Below are positions 2,191 to 36,119 of a stretch of 56,835 nt of DNA, one piece after another; within the stretch, counting starts at the first letter, position 1, and each line of letters opens with the position of its first letter. The stretch covers positions 1-56,835 of the forward strand of contig DATNQM010000011.1 of assembly GCA_036704045.1 (NCBI GenBank), written 5' to 3'. This DNA is from Halomicronema sp. Lineage in GTDB: Bacteria; Cyanobacteriota; Cyanobacteriia; Cyanobacteriales; Oscillatoriaceae. Under the pieces are notes generated by a model. That model saw only the letters and a list, made by a program, of their open reading frames with translations, was not told the origin of the DNA and did no database searches. The position numbers and the translations under genes were made by a program.

Positions 2191-4197
2191 TTAGCCTAAC
2201 AAAGCTTTTGCTTTTGCCACAACATTCTCAACAGTGAAGCCAAATTTCTCCAACAGTACCTCACCAGGAGCCGAAGCACCAAAAGTATCAATACTTACGG
2301 TATCACCTTCACTGCCAACATACCGGCACCAGCCAAAGCTAACAGCAGCTTCCACCGCTAAACGCTTCTTAACAGCCTTCGGCAAAACTGACTCTTTATA
2401 AGCTTCGTCTTGCTCATCAAACAACTCTGAACAAGGCATAGAAACAACGCGAACTTTCTTACCTTCGCTGCGTAATTGTTCAGCTGCTTTGACACAAAGT
2501 TGAACTTCAGAACCGGTTCCAATCAAAATAATATCAGGAGTTTCTTCACCACCAGAAAGAACATAAGCACCCTTGCTTACGATATCAATAGAAGAACCAT
2601 CCAAATTAGGTAAATTTTGACGAGACATCGCCATCAAAGATGGACGTTTACGGTTTTGAATTGCTACCTTATAAGCACCAGAAGACTCATTACCATCGGC
2701 AGGACGGAAAACCAACAAATTAGGAATTACACGCAGAGAAGCCAAGGTTTCAACCGGCTGGTGAGTGGGGCCATCTTCACCTAAACCAATGGAGTCATGG
2801 GTCATTACGTAAATAACGCCAACTTCTGCCAATGCAGACAAGCGAATGGCAGCCCGCATATAGTCAGCAAACACCAAAAACGTAGCGCAATAAGGAATCA
2901 AACCAGAGTTGTGCAAAGCAATACCATTGCAAATTGCACCCATCCCATGTTCCCGTACACCAAAGCGCAAGTTACGGTTTTGGTATTGACCTTTTTGGAA
3001 GCTACCCTCACCCTTAATTTCTGTCAGGTTAGAGTGGGTTAAGTCAGCAGAACCGCCCAATAATTCCGGCATATTTTTTGCCAGAGCATTCAAGCAATTT
3101 TCTGAATGTTTGCGAGTTGCAACGGCCTTATCTGCGGGGGTGTAGCTAGGCAAACCACTATCCCAACCGTCAGGTAGTTTACCGCTCAACATCCGCTCAA
3201 ACAATGCGGCTTCTTCAGCGTACTTGGTGCGATAGGTAGCATAGGTTTCTTCCCACTCAGCTTGATAGCTTGCACCGCGCTCAACGGCTTTACGGAAGTG
3301 AGCCAGCACATCATCGGGAATCACAAATGGCTCATAGTTCCAGCCAAGGTTTTCACGGGTTGCTTTTACTTCATCGCCACCTAAAGCAGCACCGTGAACA
3401 CCGGCAGTATTTTGCTTATTGGGAGAACCATAACCGATTGTGGTTGTCACCTTAATCATGGAAGGCTTATCGGTTACAGATTTAGCTTCGGCAATGGCGG
3501 CTGCAATCGCATCTAAATCAGTGTTACCATTTTCGACGTGCAGAACGTGCCAGCCGTAAGCTTCAAAGCGTTTGCTTACATCTTCGGTGAAAGAAATATC
3601 AGTACAACCATCAATAGAGATGTGGTTGTCATCGTAGAGGGCGATCAGTTTACCAAGTCCAAGGTGACCTGCCAAAGAACAAGCTTCACCAGAAACGCCT
3701 TCCATATTGCAACCATCACCCAAAATCACATAGGTGTAATGGTCAACAATTTTGCAATCGGGTTTGTTGAATTTGGCAGCCAGGTGAGCTTCTGCCATTG
3801 CTAAACCAACGGCGTTAGCAATACCTTGACCAAGGGGGCCGGTGGTAACTTCCACGCCTTCAGTTTCAAAGTTTTCGGGGTGTCCAGGTGTTTTTGAACC
3901 CCACTGACGGAAGTTTTTAATTTCTTCTAGGGGAACGCTGTCATAGCCGGTGAGGTGCAGCAAAGCGTACTGCAACATACAACCATGACCGGCAGACAAA
4001 ACAAAACGGTCGCGGTTAAACCACTGAGGATTTTTTGGGTTAAACCGCATGAACTGATCCCACAGCACAAACGCCATTGGCGCGGCACCCATCGGTAGAC
4101 CGGGGTGGCCAGATTTCGCTTTTTCTACGGCATCAATAGCCAGAAAGCGGATTGAATTTATACAAAGTTCTTGTAGAGTTTGGGTTGCGACTGCCAT
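2191..4197 (-). CDS. tktA: transketolase
   Basis: 668 aa with the SGHPG…[12 protein letters not shown] ThDP motif, GDGCNMEG, and a C-terminal transketolase domain. It lies downstream of acpP-fabF as in other cyanobacteria. Confidence 0.95.
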
Positions 4198-4391
4198 GTT
4201 CGTTATTTTGTGTGAGAACGGTGCGGGTTTGAAGGTTGAGACTTGCTACAGACACGACATCTCGCGTCTTTAAAAATTCGTCCCAAAATTTTTATACCCA
4301 TCATCCCATTAGGGGGATTGATGGACAAGAGGGAATCGGGTATTTGTCCTTTGTCCTTTGTCAAGGCTAAGTAGTAACGACAAATAACCTA

Positions 4392-5645
4392 TTACCCAAC
4401 ATACTTTTTAAAGGCCAAGGTAACGTTATGACCGCCAAAGCCAAAGGAGTTGGATAAGGCGACATTCACGATTTGGCTACGGCTCGTATGGGGCACATAG
4501 TCCAAATCACAGCCCTCATCTGGATTTTCTAAATTAATAGTCGGTGGGATGCGGTCATTAGCAATGGCCATAGCCGTTGCCACCGCTTCGATGCCGCCCG
4601 AACCTCCTAAGAGGTGGCCAGTCATCGATTTGGTAGAACTCACAGCTACTTTATAAGCTGCTTCTCCCAAGGCTTTTTTAATGGCGGCAGTTTCTGTGGG
4701 GTCGTTGGCTCCGGTGCTAGTACCGTGAGCGTTAATGTAGCTGACTTGATCAGGAGTAATTCCGCCATCTTTCATAGCGAGTTGAATTGCTCTGGCTGCA
4801 CCTTCACCTCCCGGCACCGGCGAGGTCATGTGATAGGCATCGCAGGTCATGCCATAGCCAACAATTTCTGCATAGATTTTTGCGCCGCGAGCTTTGGCGT
4901 GTTCGAGTTCTTCGAGCAGCAAAATACCTGCCCCTTCTCCCATCACAAACCCATCGCGGTCTTTATCAAAAGGCCGGCAGGCTTTGGTGGGTTCATCGTT
5001 ACGGGTTGAAAGTGCTCTGGCTGCTGCAAACCCTGCTACCGATAAAGGTGTAACTGCTGCTTCACATCCCCCGCAAATCATTGCTTGCGCTAAACCTTGC
5101 TGGATAATGCGAAATGCTTCACCTACTGCATTTGACCCTGCTGCACAGGCAGTTACGGTGCAGTTATTTGGCCCTTTTGCACCGGTCTGGATTGCCGTTA
5201 AACCGGCAGCCATGTTAGCAATCATCATCGGAATCATAAAAGGGCTGCATTTATTTGGCCCTTTTGTCAGGTAGATTTCTTGTTGGTCTTCCAACACTTT
5301 TAGACCGCCGATGCCGGTGCCGATGATCACGCCTACCTGTTCTGCGTTTAGCTCGTTGATTTCAAAGCCGGCATCTGCAATAGCCTGCTTACTGGCTGCT
5401 ACCCCAAACTGAGCAAAACGATCCATCCGTTTCGCTTCTTTGCGTTCTAGGTACTCATGGGGGTCAAATCCCTTTACTTCACCGGCAATGCGACAATCAT
5501 GCCGCGATGGATCAAATAAGGTAATCGGCCCTATTCCATTTTTGCCTGCCATCAACCCTTCCCAATATTCGGTTAGGGTATTTCCTATCGGTGTAATTGC
5601 ACCGAGTCCTGTTACAACAACTCGTTTTTTTTCAAAGTTCGACAT
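4392..5645 (-). CDS. fabF: 3-oxoacyl-ACP synthase II
   Basis: 417 aa with the KAS-II motifs (active-site Cys in [25 protein letters not shown]) and the C-terminal NSFGFGGHN. Confidence 0.95.
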
Positions 5646-32582: not shown

Positions 32583-33035
32583 TTATGTCGAGGGAGTGGG
32601 TTCGGTTTCTGTTTTAGTAAGAAATTTTTCGGTAATCCAATTTGTGACAATGTGTGATAATAGTCCCAAAGGGCCGGCAAACAAACATAAAATTAAGGAA
32701 TGAATTGTCCAAATTCCTGTCCGTTGTCCTTCTAAATAAATCCACCGACCTACAAATAAATCCATTACTAGAAAATGTACCCAGCCGGTGGCTGTGGCTC
32801 TTTCTTCTGCAAAAAATTTAGCAATGTCTGTTAAGGTAGGATTGGCTAAAGCTTGGGCGGTTTCATCGTTAATAGTCCCGCTGATTAAAAAGATATAAAG
32901 CCCTGCCAAAATTACAAAGGGAATATAAGAGCCTATAATTTTTTTTGTGACTCCCCAGTTTGGTAATAAAATCATTAAAGTCCAAAAGGGTAAGACAAAT
33001 ATATTGGCACCGCTGAAAATTTGTTCTATATTCAT
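32583..33035 (-). CDS. DUF4281 (ABA4-like) membrane protein
   Basis: Four hydrophobic helices with the pattern seen in plastid ABA4/DUF4281 proteins (FWTLMILLPNWG…WVHFLVMDLFVGRW). Family assignment is from memory. Confidence 0.55.
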   Translation of the reverse strand: MNIEQIFSGANIFVLPFWTLMILLPNWGVTKKIIGSYIPFVILAGLYIFLISGTINDETAQALANPTLTDIAKFFAEERATATGWVHFLVMDLFVGRWIYLEGQRTGIWTIHSLILCLFAGPLGLLSHIVTNWITEKFLTKTETEPTPST

Positions 33036-33072: not shown

Positions 33073-34146
33073 ATGTTTCTTGGCAAGAGGTTTGTAAATT
33101 TCACTACTAAAAAATCAATGCTGAGTACAATAAAGGCTAGTTTTAGGGTTTGGTTGGTTTGTTGGTTATTAGTTTTGGGCTTGGTGATTAGCCGGCCGGT
33201 TTTTGCAGCAAATGAAGTTAGAAGTTTTGCTGATTTTTGTTTAAATCAAGATCAACTTACGCCCCAAGCTAAATTAACGGTTAGTTTAATGTTAGAAGGG
33301 GCGGGTACGGAAGATTGTCAAGAGGCTAAGGAGATATTTTCTTCAACTTTTGAACTTAATTTTAGCCGGGCGGGAATTTCTGATCTTTCTCCTCTTTCGA
33401 GTTTGACAAATTTAAGAGTTCTTTATCTGGATGTTAATAATATTTCGGATCTTTCTCCTTTGGGTTCTTTAGTCAATTTGACTTCGCTTTTTTTGGATAG
33501 CAATCAAATTTCTGATATAACTCCTTTAGAAAATTTGCAAAATTTAACTTTGCTTAGTCTTTTTAATAACCAAGTGTCTGATATTACTCCTTTAAAATCT
33601 TTGAAAGAACTTAGAAAATTGTCTTTGTATAGCAATCAAATTACTGATTTAAATGCTTTACAAGGGTTAACTAATTTAGAGTTTGTTTCTATTTCAGAAA
33701 ATCAAGTTTCTGATTTAAGTCCCCTAAGTAATTTAACTAAACTTACTTTTTTATCTCTTTATGGTAACAGAATTTCTAATTTAAGTGCTTTGGAAAGTTT
33801 GCAAAATTTAGTTTATTTGAATCTTCATAGTAATCAAATTTTTGATTTACATCCTCTCGCATCTTTACAAAATCTAAAGGATTTAAATTTAGGCAATAAT
33901 TACATTTCTGATGTTTTACCACTGGGGTCTTTAGTTAATTTAACAGAGTTGATTTTGTTTGGGAATAAAGTTAGTAATTTGAAGGGCTTAGAGTTTTTAA
34001 AAACCTTAAGTTATTTAGATTTGTATAATAACCAAGTTACGGATATTAATCTTTTGAATTCTCTGCAAAATTTAAGAATGTTGGATTTACGAGAAAATCC
34101 TTTAAACGAAAAACAATGTCCTGTAGAAGGGATATGTAGGTTTTGA
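33073..34146 (+). CDS. secreted leucine-rich-repeat protein (internalin-like 22-aa repeats)
   Basis: Signal peptide followed by about twelve tandem 22-residue units of the form NLxxLxLxxNQIsDIsPLxsLx. Confidence 0.85.
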   Translation: MFLGKRFVNFTTKKSMLSTIKASFRVWLVCWLLVLGLVISRPVFAANEVRSFADFCLNQDQLTPQAKLTVSLMLEGAGTEDCQEAKEIFSSTFELNFSRAGISDLSPLSSLTNLRVLYLDVNNISDLSPLGSLVNLTSLFLDSNQISDITPLENLQNLTLLSLFNNQVSDITPLKSLKELRKLSLYSNQITDLNALQGLTNLEFVSISENQVSDLSPLSNLTKLTFLSLYGNRISNLSALESLQNLVYLNLHSNQIFDLHPLASLQNLKDLNLGNNYISDVLPLGSLVNLTELILFGNKVSNLKGLEFLKTLSYLDLYNNQVTDINLLNSLQNLRMLDLRENPLNEKQCPVEGICRF

Positions 34147-34482
34147 GTTTCTCTTACAATATAAATATTTTAAGGGCAAAACCAAAGCAATTACAGGCTT
34201 TTTTAAGGGTGGAAAGCACAAAAAATATCCCCCCCTTCTCTCCCATCTTTCACAAAGAAAGAGAGGCAATAAATCGCACCTATCAGAAATAAAAATGCTA
34301 TAAATAAAGATGAAAAATTGGATTTTTTTTGTTTTACTAATTTATAGAAATAACGAAGATAAATAAGAAGTAAGACAGAAGTTAAAGATTTTGCTTGGAG
34401 TTTTTCACAGATTGGTATTAGAATGCTAAAATAATTGGCAAATCAAGGGTTTGATAACATACCATTACAAGGAGACTTTGTT

Positions 34483-34578
34483 ATGAATTCTCACGATCTT
34501 TTAATGTTAGGAATTTTGCTACTTCCAGGCTTAGCACTTTCGATAGCTATTATGGCTTCTTTTGCTGCTGGCGGTTAA
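34483..34578 (+). CDS. unannotated 31-aa single-helix membrane peptide (MNSHDLLMLGILLLPGLALSIAIMASFAAGG)
   Basis: AAGGAG at 34469-34474 lies 8 nt upstream of the ATG. The ORF has a hydrophobic core and sits in an otherwise empty 780-bp intergenic gap. It is below the ORF-track length cut-off. Confidence 0.35.
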   Translation: MNSHDLLMLGILLLPGLALSIAIMASFAAGG

Positions 34579-34925
34579 TTTTTCTAAGTATTCTGCCGTT
34601 TGCTGTGGACTAAAAAACTTTTGACAGATAAAATACCAGACACAGCAGCGGCGGAGACTTAATTTATAGCTAGGGTTTGAAAAATTTTTGAATTTATTAA
34701 GTTTTTAAGAAAATTTAAGACTATTTTTATACAGCAATATAAGAGAGAAAGCATAGCACCGGCAGTTAACTTTACCCAGGGCTATGCTATTTATCTAAGG
34801 TACGGTAAACGAGTTCAAATTTAGATCAAAATTTGCTATTTTTGGAATTGCTTAAAACATTGAAAGTAACTGCAAAAGAGTCTTTTTTTTATTAAAAACT
34901 CTTAATCCAAAACTTTCAAAAATTT

Positions 34926-36119
34926 TTATCCTCGTTTAGCATTGGCTTCCATATTTTCTAGCATTTCTAGGTATTGGGAAGATTTGGCCTGAACATCTCT
35001 AATAAACTGGCGTAGACTTTGATATTTTAAAGGGGCATTTCCACCTTTTTGAGAGTCTTCTATATGTTTATCCAGTTCTGCTTCTAATTCGTGAATATGC
35101 TTTTCAAGAACCGTCATTACAGCATTAACTCGAACATCAACAAAAGGTCTTAAAGCATTTTCTACCTCTCGCTGTTTTTTGATAACTTCCCCAATTTTTG
35201 CATCAGATTCATCAGTGAGAATAAAATCAGGAATATTCAAATCATCGCTGCTATTATAGCTATCATCTTCATCATCATCATCTTTTTTGCTTTGGGCAGC
35301 TAATTGGATATCGGAAGGACGATGATAACTAGCTTTAAAGCTGATTTCTGTAATTTCATCTTCATCAGCATCCAAAGTAATATCGCGCCCTCTTTGGATT
35401 TCTTGATAGTAGGGCAACATCGACTCTACGATGATATTAGCTGTTTTAATTTGTTTGTCGGGTTCTTCTAAACAAGTTGCAGTACCATAGAGACGAAACT
35501 CTAAATCTTCTGGAGTTTCACAAGCATAAAATAAAGCCCGTACTAACTCATCAAATTCTAAAGAATCGAGAGTTGCCCAATCTTGAGTGCTATAACCAAA
35601 CTTATAGTTTAGGGCAGAAAAAACCAAAACTTTCGCCCGACGGACTGTAGATTCTCGTGATACAGTAAACTTTAAATCCGACAAATCGTAAGGATATTTA
35701 ACACCTTTTTTAAGTTGTTTTAATTGGGTGCGAATCCGTTTACGTTTAGCTTGATTTTCAGGATAAAGTTTACTTAGTTTTTGAACCAAGGTACTAGCGA
35801 GCAAAAAATACTGGACTTTTTTATTCAGTTTTTTAATAACCTGAAGAATAAGAGACTCCAGATGGCCAAAAGTAGTCGCAACCTTATAAGTATCTGTGAC
35901 TAAATCAGATAAATCCAAAGCATCGAGTGTGTCTTGGTTATTTTCCCACCGATTTTTAGTAGCACATAAAAGTAATTTTTTGATTTTGCTAACGTTATCA
36001 CTGCGTTCTAAGTCTTTGAGGACTTCATCAAAACCCGGTATTAGTTCCATTTTTTTTCTCCTGTCAAATGCACAGCAAACCAGTCCTGTTAGGGTAAAGG
36101 TGATGTCGGCGATTCGCAC
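34926..36119 (-). CDS. hypothetical acidic coiled-coil protein
   Basis: Long ORF with a poly-acidic tract (KKDDDDEDDSYNSSDD) and no recognised domain. ATG at MELIPGF (36050) is a possible alternative start. Confidence 0.5.
   Translation of the reverse strand: MRIADITFTLTGLVCCAFDRRKKMELIPGFDEVLKDLERSDNVSKIKKLLLCATKNRWENNQDTLDALDLSDLVTDTYKVATTFGHLESLILQVIKKLNKKVQYFLLASTLVQKLSKLYPENQAKRKRIRTQLKQLKKGVKYPYDLSDLKFTVSRESTVRRAKVLVFSALNYKFGYSTQDWATLDSLEFDELVRALFYACETPEDLEFRLYGTATCLEEPDKQIKTANIIVESMLPYYQEIQRGRDITLDADEDEITEISFKASYHRPSDIQLAAQSKKDDDDEDDSYNSSDDLNIPDFILTDESDAKIGEVIKKQREVENALRPFVDVRVNAVMTVLEKHIHELEAELDKHIEDSQKGGNAPLKYQSLRQFIRDVQAKSSQYLEMLENMEANAKRG

What the first reader, a model, noticed from the sequence alone, without database searches (positions are those of the whole stretch)
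34147..34925. 780-bp gene-poor gap containing an unannotated 31-codon transmembrane ORF with a strong Shine-Dalgarno sequence
ORF 34483-34578 (MNSHDLLMLGILLLPGLALSIAIMASFAAGG) has AAGGAG 8 nt upstream of the ATG, which is unusually canonical for cyanobacteria. It encodes a single hydrophobic helix, and small single-helix peptides are well-known subunits of photosynthetic and respiratory complexes. It matches none of the named small subunits I can recall (PetG/M/N, PsbJ/X/Y/30, PsaM).
Basis: seen in the sequence. Interest (0 to 1): 0.5.

Follow-up and report, generated by a model that had tools for sequence, protein, structure and literature searches.

The report
Unannotated copy of cyanobacterial micropeptide Norf4/SniP3
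The 31-codon ORF is a real gene under strong purifying selection, but it is not new: it is this genome's copy of Norf4 (now SniP3), a 31-residue hydrophobic peptide found across cyanobacteria, shown to be translated in Synechocystis in 2016 and recently reported to regulate the enzyme Gap2.

Summary
ORF 34483-34578 (+) has AAGGAG 8 nt before its ATG and sits in a 779-bp gap between an LRR-protein gene and a convergent 397-aa gene.

The SD-plus-ATG motif alone occurs at chance frequency in the window (3 found, 2.55 expected). Conservation is what makes the ORF real:
- Homologues are always exactly 31 codons, with consensus MxxHDLLMLxxLLxPGxLLSxxIMxTFAAGG-stop.
- They occur in Oscillatoriales, Nostocales, Chroococcidiopsidales, Pleurocapsales, Leptolyngbyaceae, Chamaesiphon and Prochlorococcus (about 600 clusters at 90% identity).
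- Synonymous sites are saturated (pS 0.73) while pN is 0.20.
- AlphaFold2 predicts one helix, residues 3-28, at pLDDT 94.5.

There is no Pfam, NCBIfam or PDB match. The literature identifies the family as Norf4 of Synechocystis 6803 (31 aa, one TM helix, "extremely conserved", FLAG-detected; Baumgartner 2016). [quoted passage not shown]

The link to Synechocystis Norf4 rests on 15 of 31 residues reconstructed from published primers (MTADQLL...MGSFAKGG), plus length, topology and phyletic pattern.

Verdict: a correct catch of an unannotated gene from an already known family. One minor new point is that homologues exist in alpha-cyanobacteria, which the 2016 paper reported as lacking them.

The parts
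34404..34432 (+). Promoter-like site: TTCACA, 17-nt spacer, TAAAAT, with a TG-extended -10 (TGCTAAAAT). The predicted TSS is near 34439-34441.
   Evidence: The consensus scan scores 10 of 12 with a TG extension. The -10 box and everything downstream to the ATG are nearly identical in the close relative L006, while sequence further upstream is not alignable. The TSS is inferred, not measured.
34440..34482 (+). Predicted 5' UTR of about 43 nt, carrying the Shine-Dalgarno sequence AAGGAG at 34469-34474, 8 nt before the ATG.
   Evidence: Read directly from the sequence. It is conserved with 3 mismatches in L006. SD-like purine runs occur at the same position in most Oscillatoriales homologues but not in several Nostocales or picocyanobacterial ones.
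34483..34578 (+). Coding sequence of the 31-aa peptide MNSHDLLMLGILLLPGLALSIAIMASFAAGG plus TAA stop. It is the orthologue of Norf4/SniP3.
   Evidence: All homologues have exactly 31 codons. Mean pS is 0.73 against pN 0.20; 30 of 30 third positions vary against 13 of 30 second positions. AF2 predicts a helix at residues 3-28 with pLDDT 94.5. GRAVY is 1.47 and mass 3112 Da.
34585..34661 (+). Long-stemmed 3' hairpin (21 pairs, 33-nt loop) starting 7 nt after the stop codon. It is probably the transcript 3' end or a stabiliser, and would give an mRNA of about 220 nt.
   Evidence: RNA fold gives -28.1 kcal/mol, z = -2.9, with 0 of 200 shuffles folding as well. Unrelated but equally strong hairpins follow the stop codon in L001, L002, L013 and L019 (z -4 to -5.9). 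No U-tract was found by the terminator scan. The predicted size agrees with the roughly 200-nt norf4 transcript seen in Synechocystis.

Best explanation
The ORF is this cyanobacterium's single-copy orthologue of Norf4 (renamed SniP3), a 31-residue peptide found across the cyanobacterial phylum. It appears to be made from its own short monocistronic mRNA of about 220 nt. That mRNA would run from an extended -10 promoter at 34404-34432, through a 43-nt leader with a strong SD and 31 codons, to a 3' hairpin at 34585-34661. The product is one hydrophobic alpha-helix (residues 3-28). It has a short acidic N-terminus (xxHD), an invariant Pro15-Gly16 and Ser20 in mid-helix, and an invariant C-terminal F-A-A-G-G ending exactly at the stop codon. 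By orthology it most likely acts as a regulatory micropeptide. It would bind and modulate partner enzymes, as reported for Gap2 of the Calvin cycle in Synechocystis, where expression rises under nitrogen depletion. It is unlikely to be a stoichiometric subunit of a photosystem, cytochrome b6f or NDH-1. Shown here: the gene is real, under purifying selection, helical and hydrophobic, single-copy and phylum-wide. Inferred: the TSS and transcript ends, membrane insertion, and the Gap2-regulating function, which is taken second-hand from the literature on Synechocystis.
For: The sequence and SD are confirmed.

Conservation:
- 14 species-level genome loci carry an ORF of exactly 31 codons with identical register.
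- 30 representatives at 50% identity have E <= 1e-3.
- 599-602 clusters at 90% identity were found, all named 'hypothetical protein' where named.
- Invariant residues L13, P15, G16, L19, S20, F27, G30 and G31 hold across 134 distinct cores, and only 1 of 134 cores contains K or R.

Coding selection: mean pS is 0.73 against pN 0.20, and third positions vary in 30 of 30 codons.

Structure: AF2 predicts a single helix at residues 3-28 with pLDDT 94.5.

Transcript features: a promoter-like site, a leader conserved with L006, and 3' hairpins in several lineages.

Identity with Norf4:
- PMC5126843 describes a 31-aa, one-TMR, 3.16-kDa, 'extremely conserved' peptide in 51 genomes of all five subsections, including Fischerella, detected by FLAG tag.
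- Its cloning primers encode N-terminal MTADQLL and C-terminal MGSFAKGG.
- 13 of these 15 residues are residues seen at the same columns of my family. These include the diagnostic M-x-x-F-A-x-G-G-stop, and FAKGG itself occurs in L020 and P0149.

Translation and function in Synechocystis:
- Ribo-seq TE is 3.06 and TIS TE 2.28; the gene is listed as SniP3 and has no RefSeq id.
- It was used as a validated benchmark translon.
Against: - I could not obtain the full Synechocystis Norf4 sequence. Only 15 of 31 residues were recovered from primers, and at positions 4-5 Synechocystis has D-Q where the family has H/Q/N-D/E.
- The primary SniP3 paper (Alvarenga-Lucius et al. 2026) is not in the searchable library, so the Gap2 function is second-hand and its mechanism is unknown to me.
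- How a peptide that is almost entirely a hydrophobic helix regulates a soluble stromal-type enzyme is not explained by anything I computed.
- No expression data exist for this organism.
- No canonical NtcA box (GTA-N8-TAC) lies within 200 nt upstream in any of 20 loci, so nitrogen control may not be conserved.
- Gene neighbourhoods differ between lineages and give no functional support.
- The antisense overlap with gap1 seen in Synechocystis is absent here (no GAPDH motif anywhere in the window).
Confidence: 0.82

Rival explanations
1. It is an undiscovered stoichiometric small subunit of a thylakoid or plasma-membrane complex (PSI, PSII, cytochrome b6f, NDH-1, a terminal oxidase).
For: It has a single hydrophobic helix of typical subunit size. 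It shows phylum-wide single-copy conservation that includes streamlined Prochlorococcus and, according to PMC5126843, UCYN-A. Its Ribo-seq TE is comparable to petN, petM and ycf12 in Synechocystis.
Against: The family profile matches no chain in 177,635 distinct PDB sequences; the best hit has E = 0.71 and is a tRNA-modifying enzyme. From my own knowledge, many cryo-EM and crystal structures of these complexes come from Synechocystis and other cyanobacteria. It is not related to PsaM (hhalign probability 3%). It lacks the flanking K/R residues usual in such subunits (1 of 134 cores has any). No MS peptides were found in the Synechocystis proteogenomic table. The literature assigns it a regulatory role on Gap2.
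Confidence: 0.1
2. The transcript works mainly as a regulatory RNA (a dual-function sRNA or antisense RNA), and the peptide is secondary. This follows the proposal for the long norf4 transcript that overlaps gap1 in Synechocystis.
For: PMC5126843 reports a 600-800-nt norf4 transcript antisense to gap1 that accumulates under nitrogen stress. In the window the downstream gene (34926-36119) is convergent, so read-through past the hairpin would be antisense to it.
Against: Conservation is at the protein level, not the RNA level. Synonymous sites are saturated and every third position varies. The flanks are unalignable beyond close relatives. The downstream partner differs in every lineage. There is no Rfam hit. 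A strong hairpin directly follows the stop codon.
Confidence: 0.05
3. It is a type I toxin-like or otherwise selfish membrane-damaging peptide, or a chance ORF.
For: It is short, very hydrophobic and has a strong SD, as many type I toxins do (from my own knowledge). A weak fstAT-like Rfam hit lies in the gap (17 bits against a gathering score of 72, E 5.7).
Against: It is single-copy in the window. It is orthologous across the whole phylum with invariant length and 8 invariant residues. It is under strong purifying selection. It has no phage copies. It is constitutively translated in Synechocystis without toxicity. The Rfam hit is far below threshold and lies 240 nt upstream on the other strand.
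Confidence: 0.02

Closest known systems
Norf4 / SniP3 of Synechocystis sp. PCC 6803 (Baumgartner et al. 2016, BMC Microbiol 16:285, PMC5126843; 'SniP3' in bioRxiv 10.64898/2025.12.20.695498 Table S2 and bioRxiv 10.64898/2026.08.10.743958)
   Same: Both are 31 aa with one predicted TM helix and a mass of about 3.1 kDa (3112 Da here, 3.16 kDa there) and an acidic pI. The N-terminus is M-x-x-x-x-L-L and the C-terminus is M-x-S-F-A-x-G-G-stop. Both are unannotated or 'hypothetical' in most genomes. Both are extremely conserved across all morphological subsections. The predicted transcript of about 220 nt compares with the observed one of about 200 nt.
   Different: The window peptide has H4-D5 and A29 where Synechocystis has D4-Q5 and K29. 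Here there is no gap1 on the opposite strand, so the antisense overlap proposed for Synechocystis cannot apply. The strong AAGGAG SD is a feature of this lineage and not of the family. Only 15 of 31 Synechocystis residues could be compared.
SliP4 (HliR1), AtpTheta (Norf1), NblD, AcnSP: other small regulatory proteins found by the same Synechocystis transcriptome-based screens
   Same: They are short ORFs in apparently empty intergenic regions. They are monocistronic, missed by annotation, and act by binding larger proteins or complexes.
   Different: There is no sequence relationship. AtpTheta, NblD and AcnSP are soluble. Norf4/SniP3 is almost entirely one hydrophobic helix and is far more widely and strictly conserved.
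PsaM (31 aa, PSI subunit XII) and the other one-helix subunits PetN, PetL, PetM, PetG, PsbT, PsbM, Psb30
   Same: They have the same size class, a single hydrophobic helix and cyanobacterial distribution. PsaM also has D5 and an LLP motif.
   Different: The profile comparison to PsaM gives probability 3%. No PDB chain of any complex matches. There are no basic residues flanking the helix.

Membership tests
Norf4 / SniP3 | ORF of exactly 31 codons with a conserved start codon | tested here: met
   The window ORF is 31 codons. All 24 loci examined have 31 codons from the aligned ATG to the stop. Longer database entries are upstream extensions of the same core, as the 2016 paper also concluded.
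Norf4 / SniP3 | Sequence similarity to the Synechocystis 6803 Norf4 peptide | tested here: met
   This is a partial test. 15 of 31 Synechocystis residues were reconstructed from published primers (MTADQLL...MGSFAKGG). 9 of 15 are identical to the window peptide. 13 of 15 are residues observed at those columns in 134 family cores, including F27, A28, G30, G31 and the stop. Residues 8-23 of Synechocystis Norf4 could not be obtained.
Norf4 / SniP3 | One predicted transmembrane helix; mass about 3.1-3.2 kDa; acidic pI | tested here: met
   AF2 predicts a helix at residues 3-28 with pLDDT 94.5. GRAVY is 1.47, mass 3112 Da and pI 5.06, against 3.16 kDa, pI 5.59 and 1 TMR in Table 3 of PMC5126843.
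Norf4 / SniP3 | Extreme conservation across cyanobacteria of all morphological subsections | tested here: met
   Homologues occur in Oscillatoria, Microcoleus, Tychonema, Nostoc, Scytonema, Fischerella, Calothrix, Gloeocapsa PCC 7428, Xenococcaceae, Chamaesiphon and Leptolyngbyaceae. 8 columns are invariant.
Norf4 / SniP3 | Translated in vivo | not testable with these tools
   This cannot be tested for this organism. For Synechocystis there is FLAG-tag detection, Ribo-seq TE of 3.06, and use as a validated benchmark translon.
Norf4 / SniP3 | Regulates Gap2 (glyceraldehyde-3-phosphate dehydrogenase 2) activity; induced on nitrogen removal | not testable with these tools
   Only a second-hand citation is available, plus expression data for Synechocystis. 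No GTA-N8-TAC NtcA box lies within 200 nt upstream in 20 loci.
Norf4 / SniP3 | mRNA overlaps gap1 in antisense (Synechocystis arrangement) | tested here: not met
   No GAPDH active-site motif (SCTTN) appears in any frame of the window. The downstream gene is an unrelated 397-aa ORF. Neighbourhoods differ in every lineage, so this is a strain-specific arrangement and not a family-defining one.
Small one-helix subunits of photosynthetic or respiratory complexes (PsaM, PetN/L/M/G, PsbT/M/30, NdhP/Q, CydX) | Sequence match to a subunit present in a solved complex or in a curated family | tested here: not met
   The PDB profile search found no relevant hit at E <= 10. Pfam and NCBIfam gave no hit for the peptide or for 70 members. 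The PsaM hhalign probability is 3%.
Type I toxin peptides | Narrow, patchy, often multi-copy distribution with a cognate antisense RNA | tested here: not met
   There is a single copy in the window. The gene has phylum-wide orthology under purifying selection. No Rfam antitoxin reaches threshold.

The most novel reading that the evidence does not exclude
Norf4/SniP3 may be a universal cyanobacterial component, including the alpha-cyanobacteria where it was reported absent. Its invariant features would form a specific docking or processing handle that recruits soluble carbon-metabolism enzymes such as Gap2 to a membrane surface. Those features are the lack of basic residues, the mid-helix Pro-Gly and Ser, and a free C-terminal Gly-Gly placed exactly at the stop codon in all 134 distinct cores. 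This would be a mode of enzyme control not described for other bacterial micropeptides. The conserved DUF3082-sniP3-pdhB-secDF arrangement in picocyanobacteria could then point to a wider role at the pyruvate/triose-phosphate node.
Probability: 0.1. Interest if true: 0.6.

Novelty: already known. Interest (0 to 1): 0.22.

Why it matters
For this genome, the result adds one real protein-coding gene to a stretch that looks empty. It also shows that the first-pass reader can pick out genuine micropeptide genes from sequence alone.

For the field, the family is already described and experimentally validated, so there is no discovery here. Two points are of modest value:
- Curated resources still lack a model. 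There is no Pfam or NCBIfam family and no RefSeq id in Synechocystis, so the gene keeps being missed or mis-extended in annotation. Many database entries carry spurious N-terminal extensions.
- Clear homologues exist in Prochlorococcus MIT 9211 and in a second contig with the same DUF3082-ORF-pdhB arrangement, apparently picocyanobacterial, which widens the published distribution.

Tried and rejected
1. Rfam search of the whole window at gathering threshold and of the gap at E <= 10 found only sub-threshold chance hits such as snoRNAs and miRNAs. There are no tRNA or tmRNA genes.
2. Pfam and NCBIfam scans of the peptide and of 70 family members found nothing.
3. A PDB sequence-profile search found nothing relevant.
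4. Literature searches for peptide fragments (HDLLML, TFAAGG, PGILLSV and others) gave no relevant hits. The link to Norf4 came from reading Baumgartner 2016.
5. Guilt by association did not work because the neighbours are not conserved. They are ABA4-like/DUF4281 in Oscillatoria, a CrtH-like carotenoid-isomerase paralogue in Tychonema, Microcoleus and L001, a roughly 390-430-aa protein with no NCBIfam match (my reading of its sequence: MidA/DUF185-like methyltransferase, not tested) plus a HIBADH-like reductase in Nostocales, and DUF3082/pdhB in Prochlorococcus. I rejected the tempting carotenoid link as lineage-specific.
6. Cyanophage carriage was tested with a viral-contig scan and tblastn against phages; there is none.
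7. I tried to recover the full Synechocystis norf4 sequence by scanning metagenome contigs with the primer sequences. This gave 0 hits, then 2 hits of no use: one lies in an unrelated ORF and the other at the cut end of a contig. Supplementary tables store the row without the sequence columns.
8. NtcA-box search upstream of 20 homologues found no GTA-N8-TAC. The looser GT-N10-AC occurs at about chance rate and lies inside the predicted leader.
9. The SD as evidence was rejected because the motif count is at chance level.
10. I did not run a fold search on the AF2 model, because a single helix gives meaningless matches.

Full report
**1. The observation**

Reading the window confirms every stated detail. 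The ATG is at 34483 and AAGGAG is at 34469-34474, exactly 8 nt upstream. There are 31 sense codons encoding MNSHDLLMLGILLLPGLALSIAIMASFAAGG, followed by TAA at 34576-34578.

The ORF table shows the gap is bounded by two genes. One is a 357-aa leucine-rich-repeat protein gene ending at 34146 (Pfam LRR_4, E 3e-60). The other is a convergent 397-aa ORF of unknown family whose stop lies at 34926. The gap is therefore 34147-34925.

The window has 40.5% G+C. There is no tRNA, tmRNA or Rfam family anywhere in the window, and only chance-level Rfam matches in the gap.

The SD-plus-ATG signal by itself is not informative. AAGGAG-N5-10-ATG occurs three times in the window against 2.55 expected, and the other two occurrences are not at gene starts.

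**2. Is it a gene?**

Yes. A search with the 47-codon TTG-extended version of the ORF found four proteins that are 83-97% identical over the 31-residue core. A pattern scan of one genome per GTDB species recovered 14 loci. These came from Oscillatoria, Microcoleus, Tychonema, Nostoc, Scytonema, Cyanomargarita and a Synechococcaceae MAG.

In every locus the aligned ATG is followed by exactly 31 codons and a stop. An exhaustive HMMER search of 1.84 billion representatives gave 30 clusters at E <= 1e-3. Profile searches of the 90%-identity collection gave about 600 clusters. Where a source names them, they are all called "hypothetical protein".

Named sources include Gloeocapsa PCC 7428, Nostoc PCC 7107, Calothrix PCC 7507, Fischerella thermalis JSC-11, Tolypothrix PCC 7101, Leptolyngbyaceae JSC-12, Chamaesiphon, Xenococcaceae and Prochlorococcus marinus. 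Many entries carry different N-terminal extensions, but the core always begins at the same Met.

Across 134 distinct cores, L13, P15, G16, L19, S20, F27, G30 and G31 are invariant. M1, L9 and A28 are nearly so (at most two exceptions), and A29 is replaced in only five cores. Only one core contains any Lys or Arg.

Codon statistics on 19 distinct coding sequences show protein-level selection:
- Mean pS is 0.73 (saturated) against pN 0.20.
- All 30 third positions vary, against 13 of 30 second positions.
- Against the close relative L006, dS is 0.32 and dN is 0.03.

The window holds a single copy. No cyanophage copy was found.

**3. Anatomy**

- **Promoter.** A promoter-like site (TTCACA, 17 nt, TAAAAT, with a TG extension) lies at 34404-34432.
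- **Leader.** From the -10 box to the ATG the sequence is almost identical in the close relative L006, whereas sequence further upstream does not align. The window carries about 200 bp of extra sequence there.
- **3' hairpin.** Seven nucleotides after the stop, a 21-pair stem (34585-34661) folds at -28.1 kcal/mol with z = -2.9.
- **Analogous hairpins.** Non-homologous but equally strong hairpins follow the stop codon in L001, L002, L013 and L019.

Together these features predict a monocistronic mRNA of roughly 220 nt. The transcript ends are inferred, not measured.

AlphaFold2 with a 70-sequence alignment predicts one continuous helix, residues 3-28, with mean pLDDT 94.5. The peptide is very hydrophobic (GRAVY 1.47, mass 3112 Da, pI 5.06).

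**4. What it is not**

- No Pfam or NCBIfam model matches the peptide or any of 70 relatives.
- A family profile matches no chain among 177,635 distinct PDB sequences.
- PsaM has the same length and a superficially similar D5/LLP pattern, but it is unrelated (hhalign probability 3%).
- Gene neighbourhoods differ by lineage and give no functional clue.

**5. What it is**

Baumgartner et al. 2016 (PMC5126843) describe Norf4 of Synechocystis 6803. They report a 31-aa peptide of 3.16 kDa and pI 5.59 with one predicted TM helix. It is "extremely conserved", with homologues in 51 genomes from all five morphological subsections, including Fischerella, Microcystis, Crocosphaera and UCYN-A. It has a prominent transcript of about 200 nt and was detected as a FLAG-tagged protein.

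The paper's figure with the alignment is not held as text. Its cloning primers, however, encode the N-terminus M-T-A-D-Q-L-L and the C-terminus M-G-S-F-A-K-G-G. These 15 residues fit my family:
- 9 are identical to the window peptide.
- 13 are residues seen at the same columns.
- The diagnostic ending F-A-x-G-G-stop is present.
- FAKGG itself occurs in L020 and in P0149 from a Xenococcaceae genome.

With identical length, topology, mass and phyletic pattern, I consider the identification secure. It is not formally complete, because residues 8-23 of the Synechocystis peptide could not be retrieved.

**6. Current knowledge of the family**

A 2026 riboproteogenomic re-annotation of Synechocystis lists Norf4 among 15 independently validated small translons. 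Its Table S2 gives the gene name SniP3, a Ribo-seq translation efficiency of 3.06, a TIS efficiency of 2.28, no RefSeq identifier and no detected MS peptide.

[quoted passage not shown] The primary paper is not in the searchable library, so the function is second-hand.

In Synechocystis, expression rises on nitrogen removal, and a longer transcript overlaps gap1 in antisense. The window contains no GAPDH gene. None of 20 homologous loci has a canonical NtcA box within 200 nt upstream. Those two features are therefore not shown to be general.

**7. Mechanism and rivals**

The best-supported reading is that the window encodes the SniP3/Norf4 orthologue: a hydrophobic one-helix regulatory micropeptide that acts by binding partner enzymes.

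It is disfavoured by three points: absence from all solved structures, the lack of flanking basic residues, and the reported soluble-enzyme target.

An RNA-level function is disfavoured by saturated synonymous sites and non-conserved flanks. A toxin or chance ORF is excluded by phylum-wide purifying selection.

**8. New relative to the 2016 description**

That paper states that homologues are lacking in alpha-cyanobacteria. I find a clear member in Prochlorococcus marinus MIT 9211: MTLHDLGLLVLLLSPGMLLSVLILSTFAAGG. It has all eight invariant residues and a profile E-value of 8e-13. It lies between a DUF3082 gene and pdhB-secD-secF.

A second contig shows the same arrangement, with the small ORF directly upstream of pdhB (L028). 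A further database entry (P0148) carries a Pfam transketolase/pyruvate-dehydrogenase (PF02779) annotation, which may reflect a read-through gene call into pdhB; its sequence was not inspected. This is a modest extension, not a new kind of object.

**9. Verdict**

The finding is a correct detection of a real, unannotated gene. The gene belongs to an already described and experimentally validated family. Interest is low to modest.

Noticed in passing
L024 4073-4168 (Prochlorococcus marinus MIT 9211, CP000878.1); L028 about 386-481: Clear Norf4/SniP3 homologues occur in alpha-cyanobacteria, always between a DUF3082 gene and pdhB (followed by secD-secF in MIT 9211). The 2016 paper states that alpha-cyanobacteria lack homologues. 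The database gene calls are over-extended at the N-terminus and overlap the DUF3082 gene.
   Followed up: partly
window 34149-34375: About 200 bp of the gap upstream of the norf4 promoter has no counterpart in the close relative L006, where the LRR gene ends only 128 bp before the ATG. This stretch contains a C7 run and a CT-rich/AG-rich imperfect inverted repeat (about 34219-34258). It could be an insertion remnant, or L006 may have a deletion.
   Followed up: no
window about 34735-34905: Two blocks are conserved with L006 (GAGAAAGCA..GCACCGGC, and ATCAAAAT..ATTTTTGGAA.TGCTTAAAAC..AAAGAG) downstream of the norf4 hairpin. On the minus strand there is an AT-rich hairpin (AAGAGT...ACTCTT followed by TTTTG) just after the stop of the 397-aa gene. 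This is probably that gene's 3' UTR or terminator, but a small RNA is not excluded. Only sub-threshold Rfam hits occur here.
   Followed up: no
L010 about 3958-4538 (minus strand), next to its norf4 copy: A degraded ORF here resembles only the C-terminal third of the CrtH-like carotenoid-isomerase paralogue that lies convergent to norf4 in Tychonema, Microcoleus, L001 and L011. It is apparently a pseudogene remnant that preserves the old synteny.
   Followed up: no
window 32583-33035 (-) and L002-L005, L022, L023: An ABA4-like (DUF4281, PF14108) membrane protein gene is the direct divergent neighbour of norf4 in the Oscillatoria PCC 10802 group. It lies 1.4 kb upstream in the window, separated by the LRR gene. 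The recurrence is lineage-limited and no functional link was shown.
   Followed up: partly
window 34926-36119 (-): The convergent 397-aa ORF has no significant Pfam or NCBIfam match (best E about 0.01). It contains an acidic DDDDEDD stretch. It is conserved, at about 374 aa, next to norf4 in L006-L009 and near it in L001.
   Followed up: no
L019 about 4130-4180: The 3' flank of the Nostoc sp. C117 norf4 copy carries a near-perfect long inverted repeat built from GACTGTTGACGGT-type units (fold -47 kcal/mol, z -5.4). It looks like one of the short dispersed repeats common in Nostoc and here serves as the post-stop hairpin.
   Followed up: no
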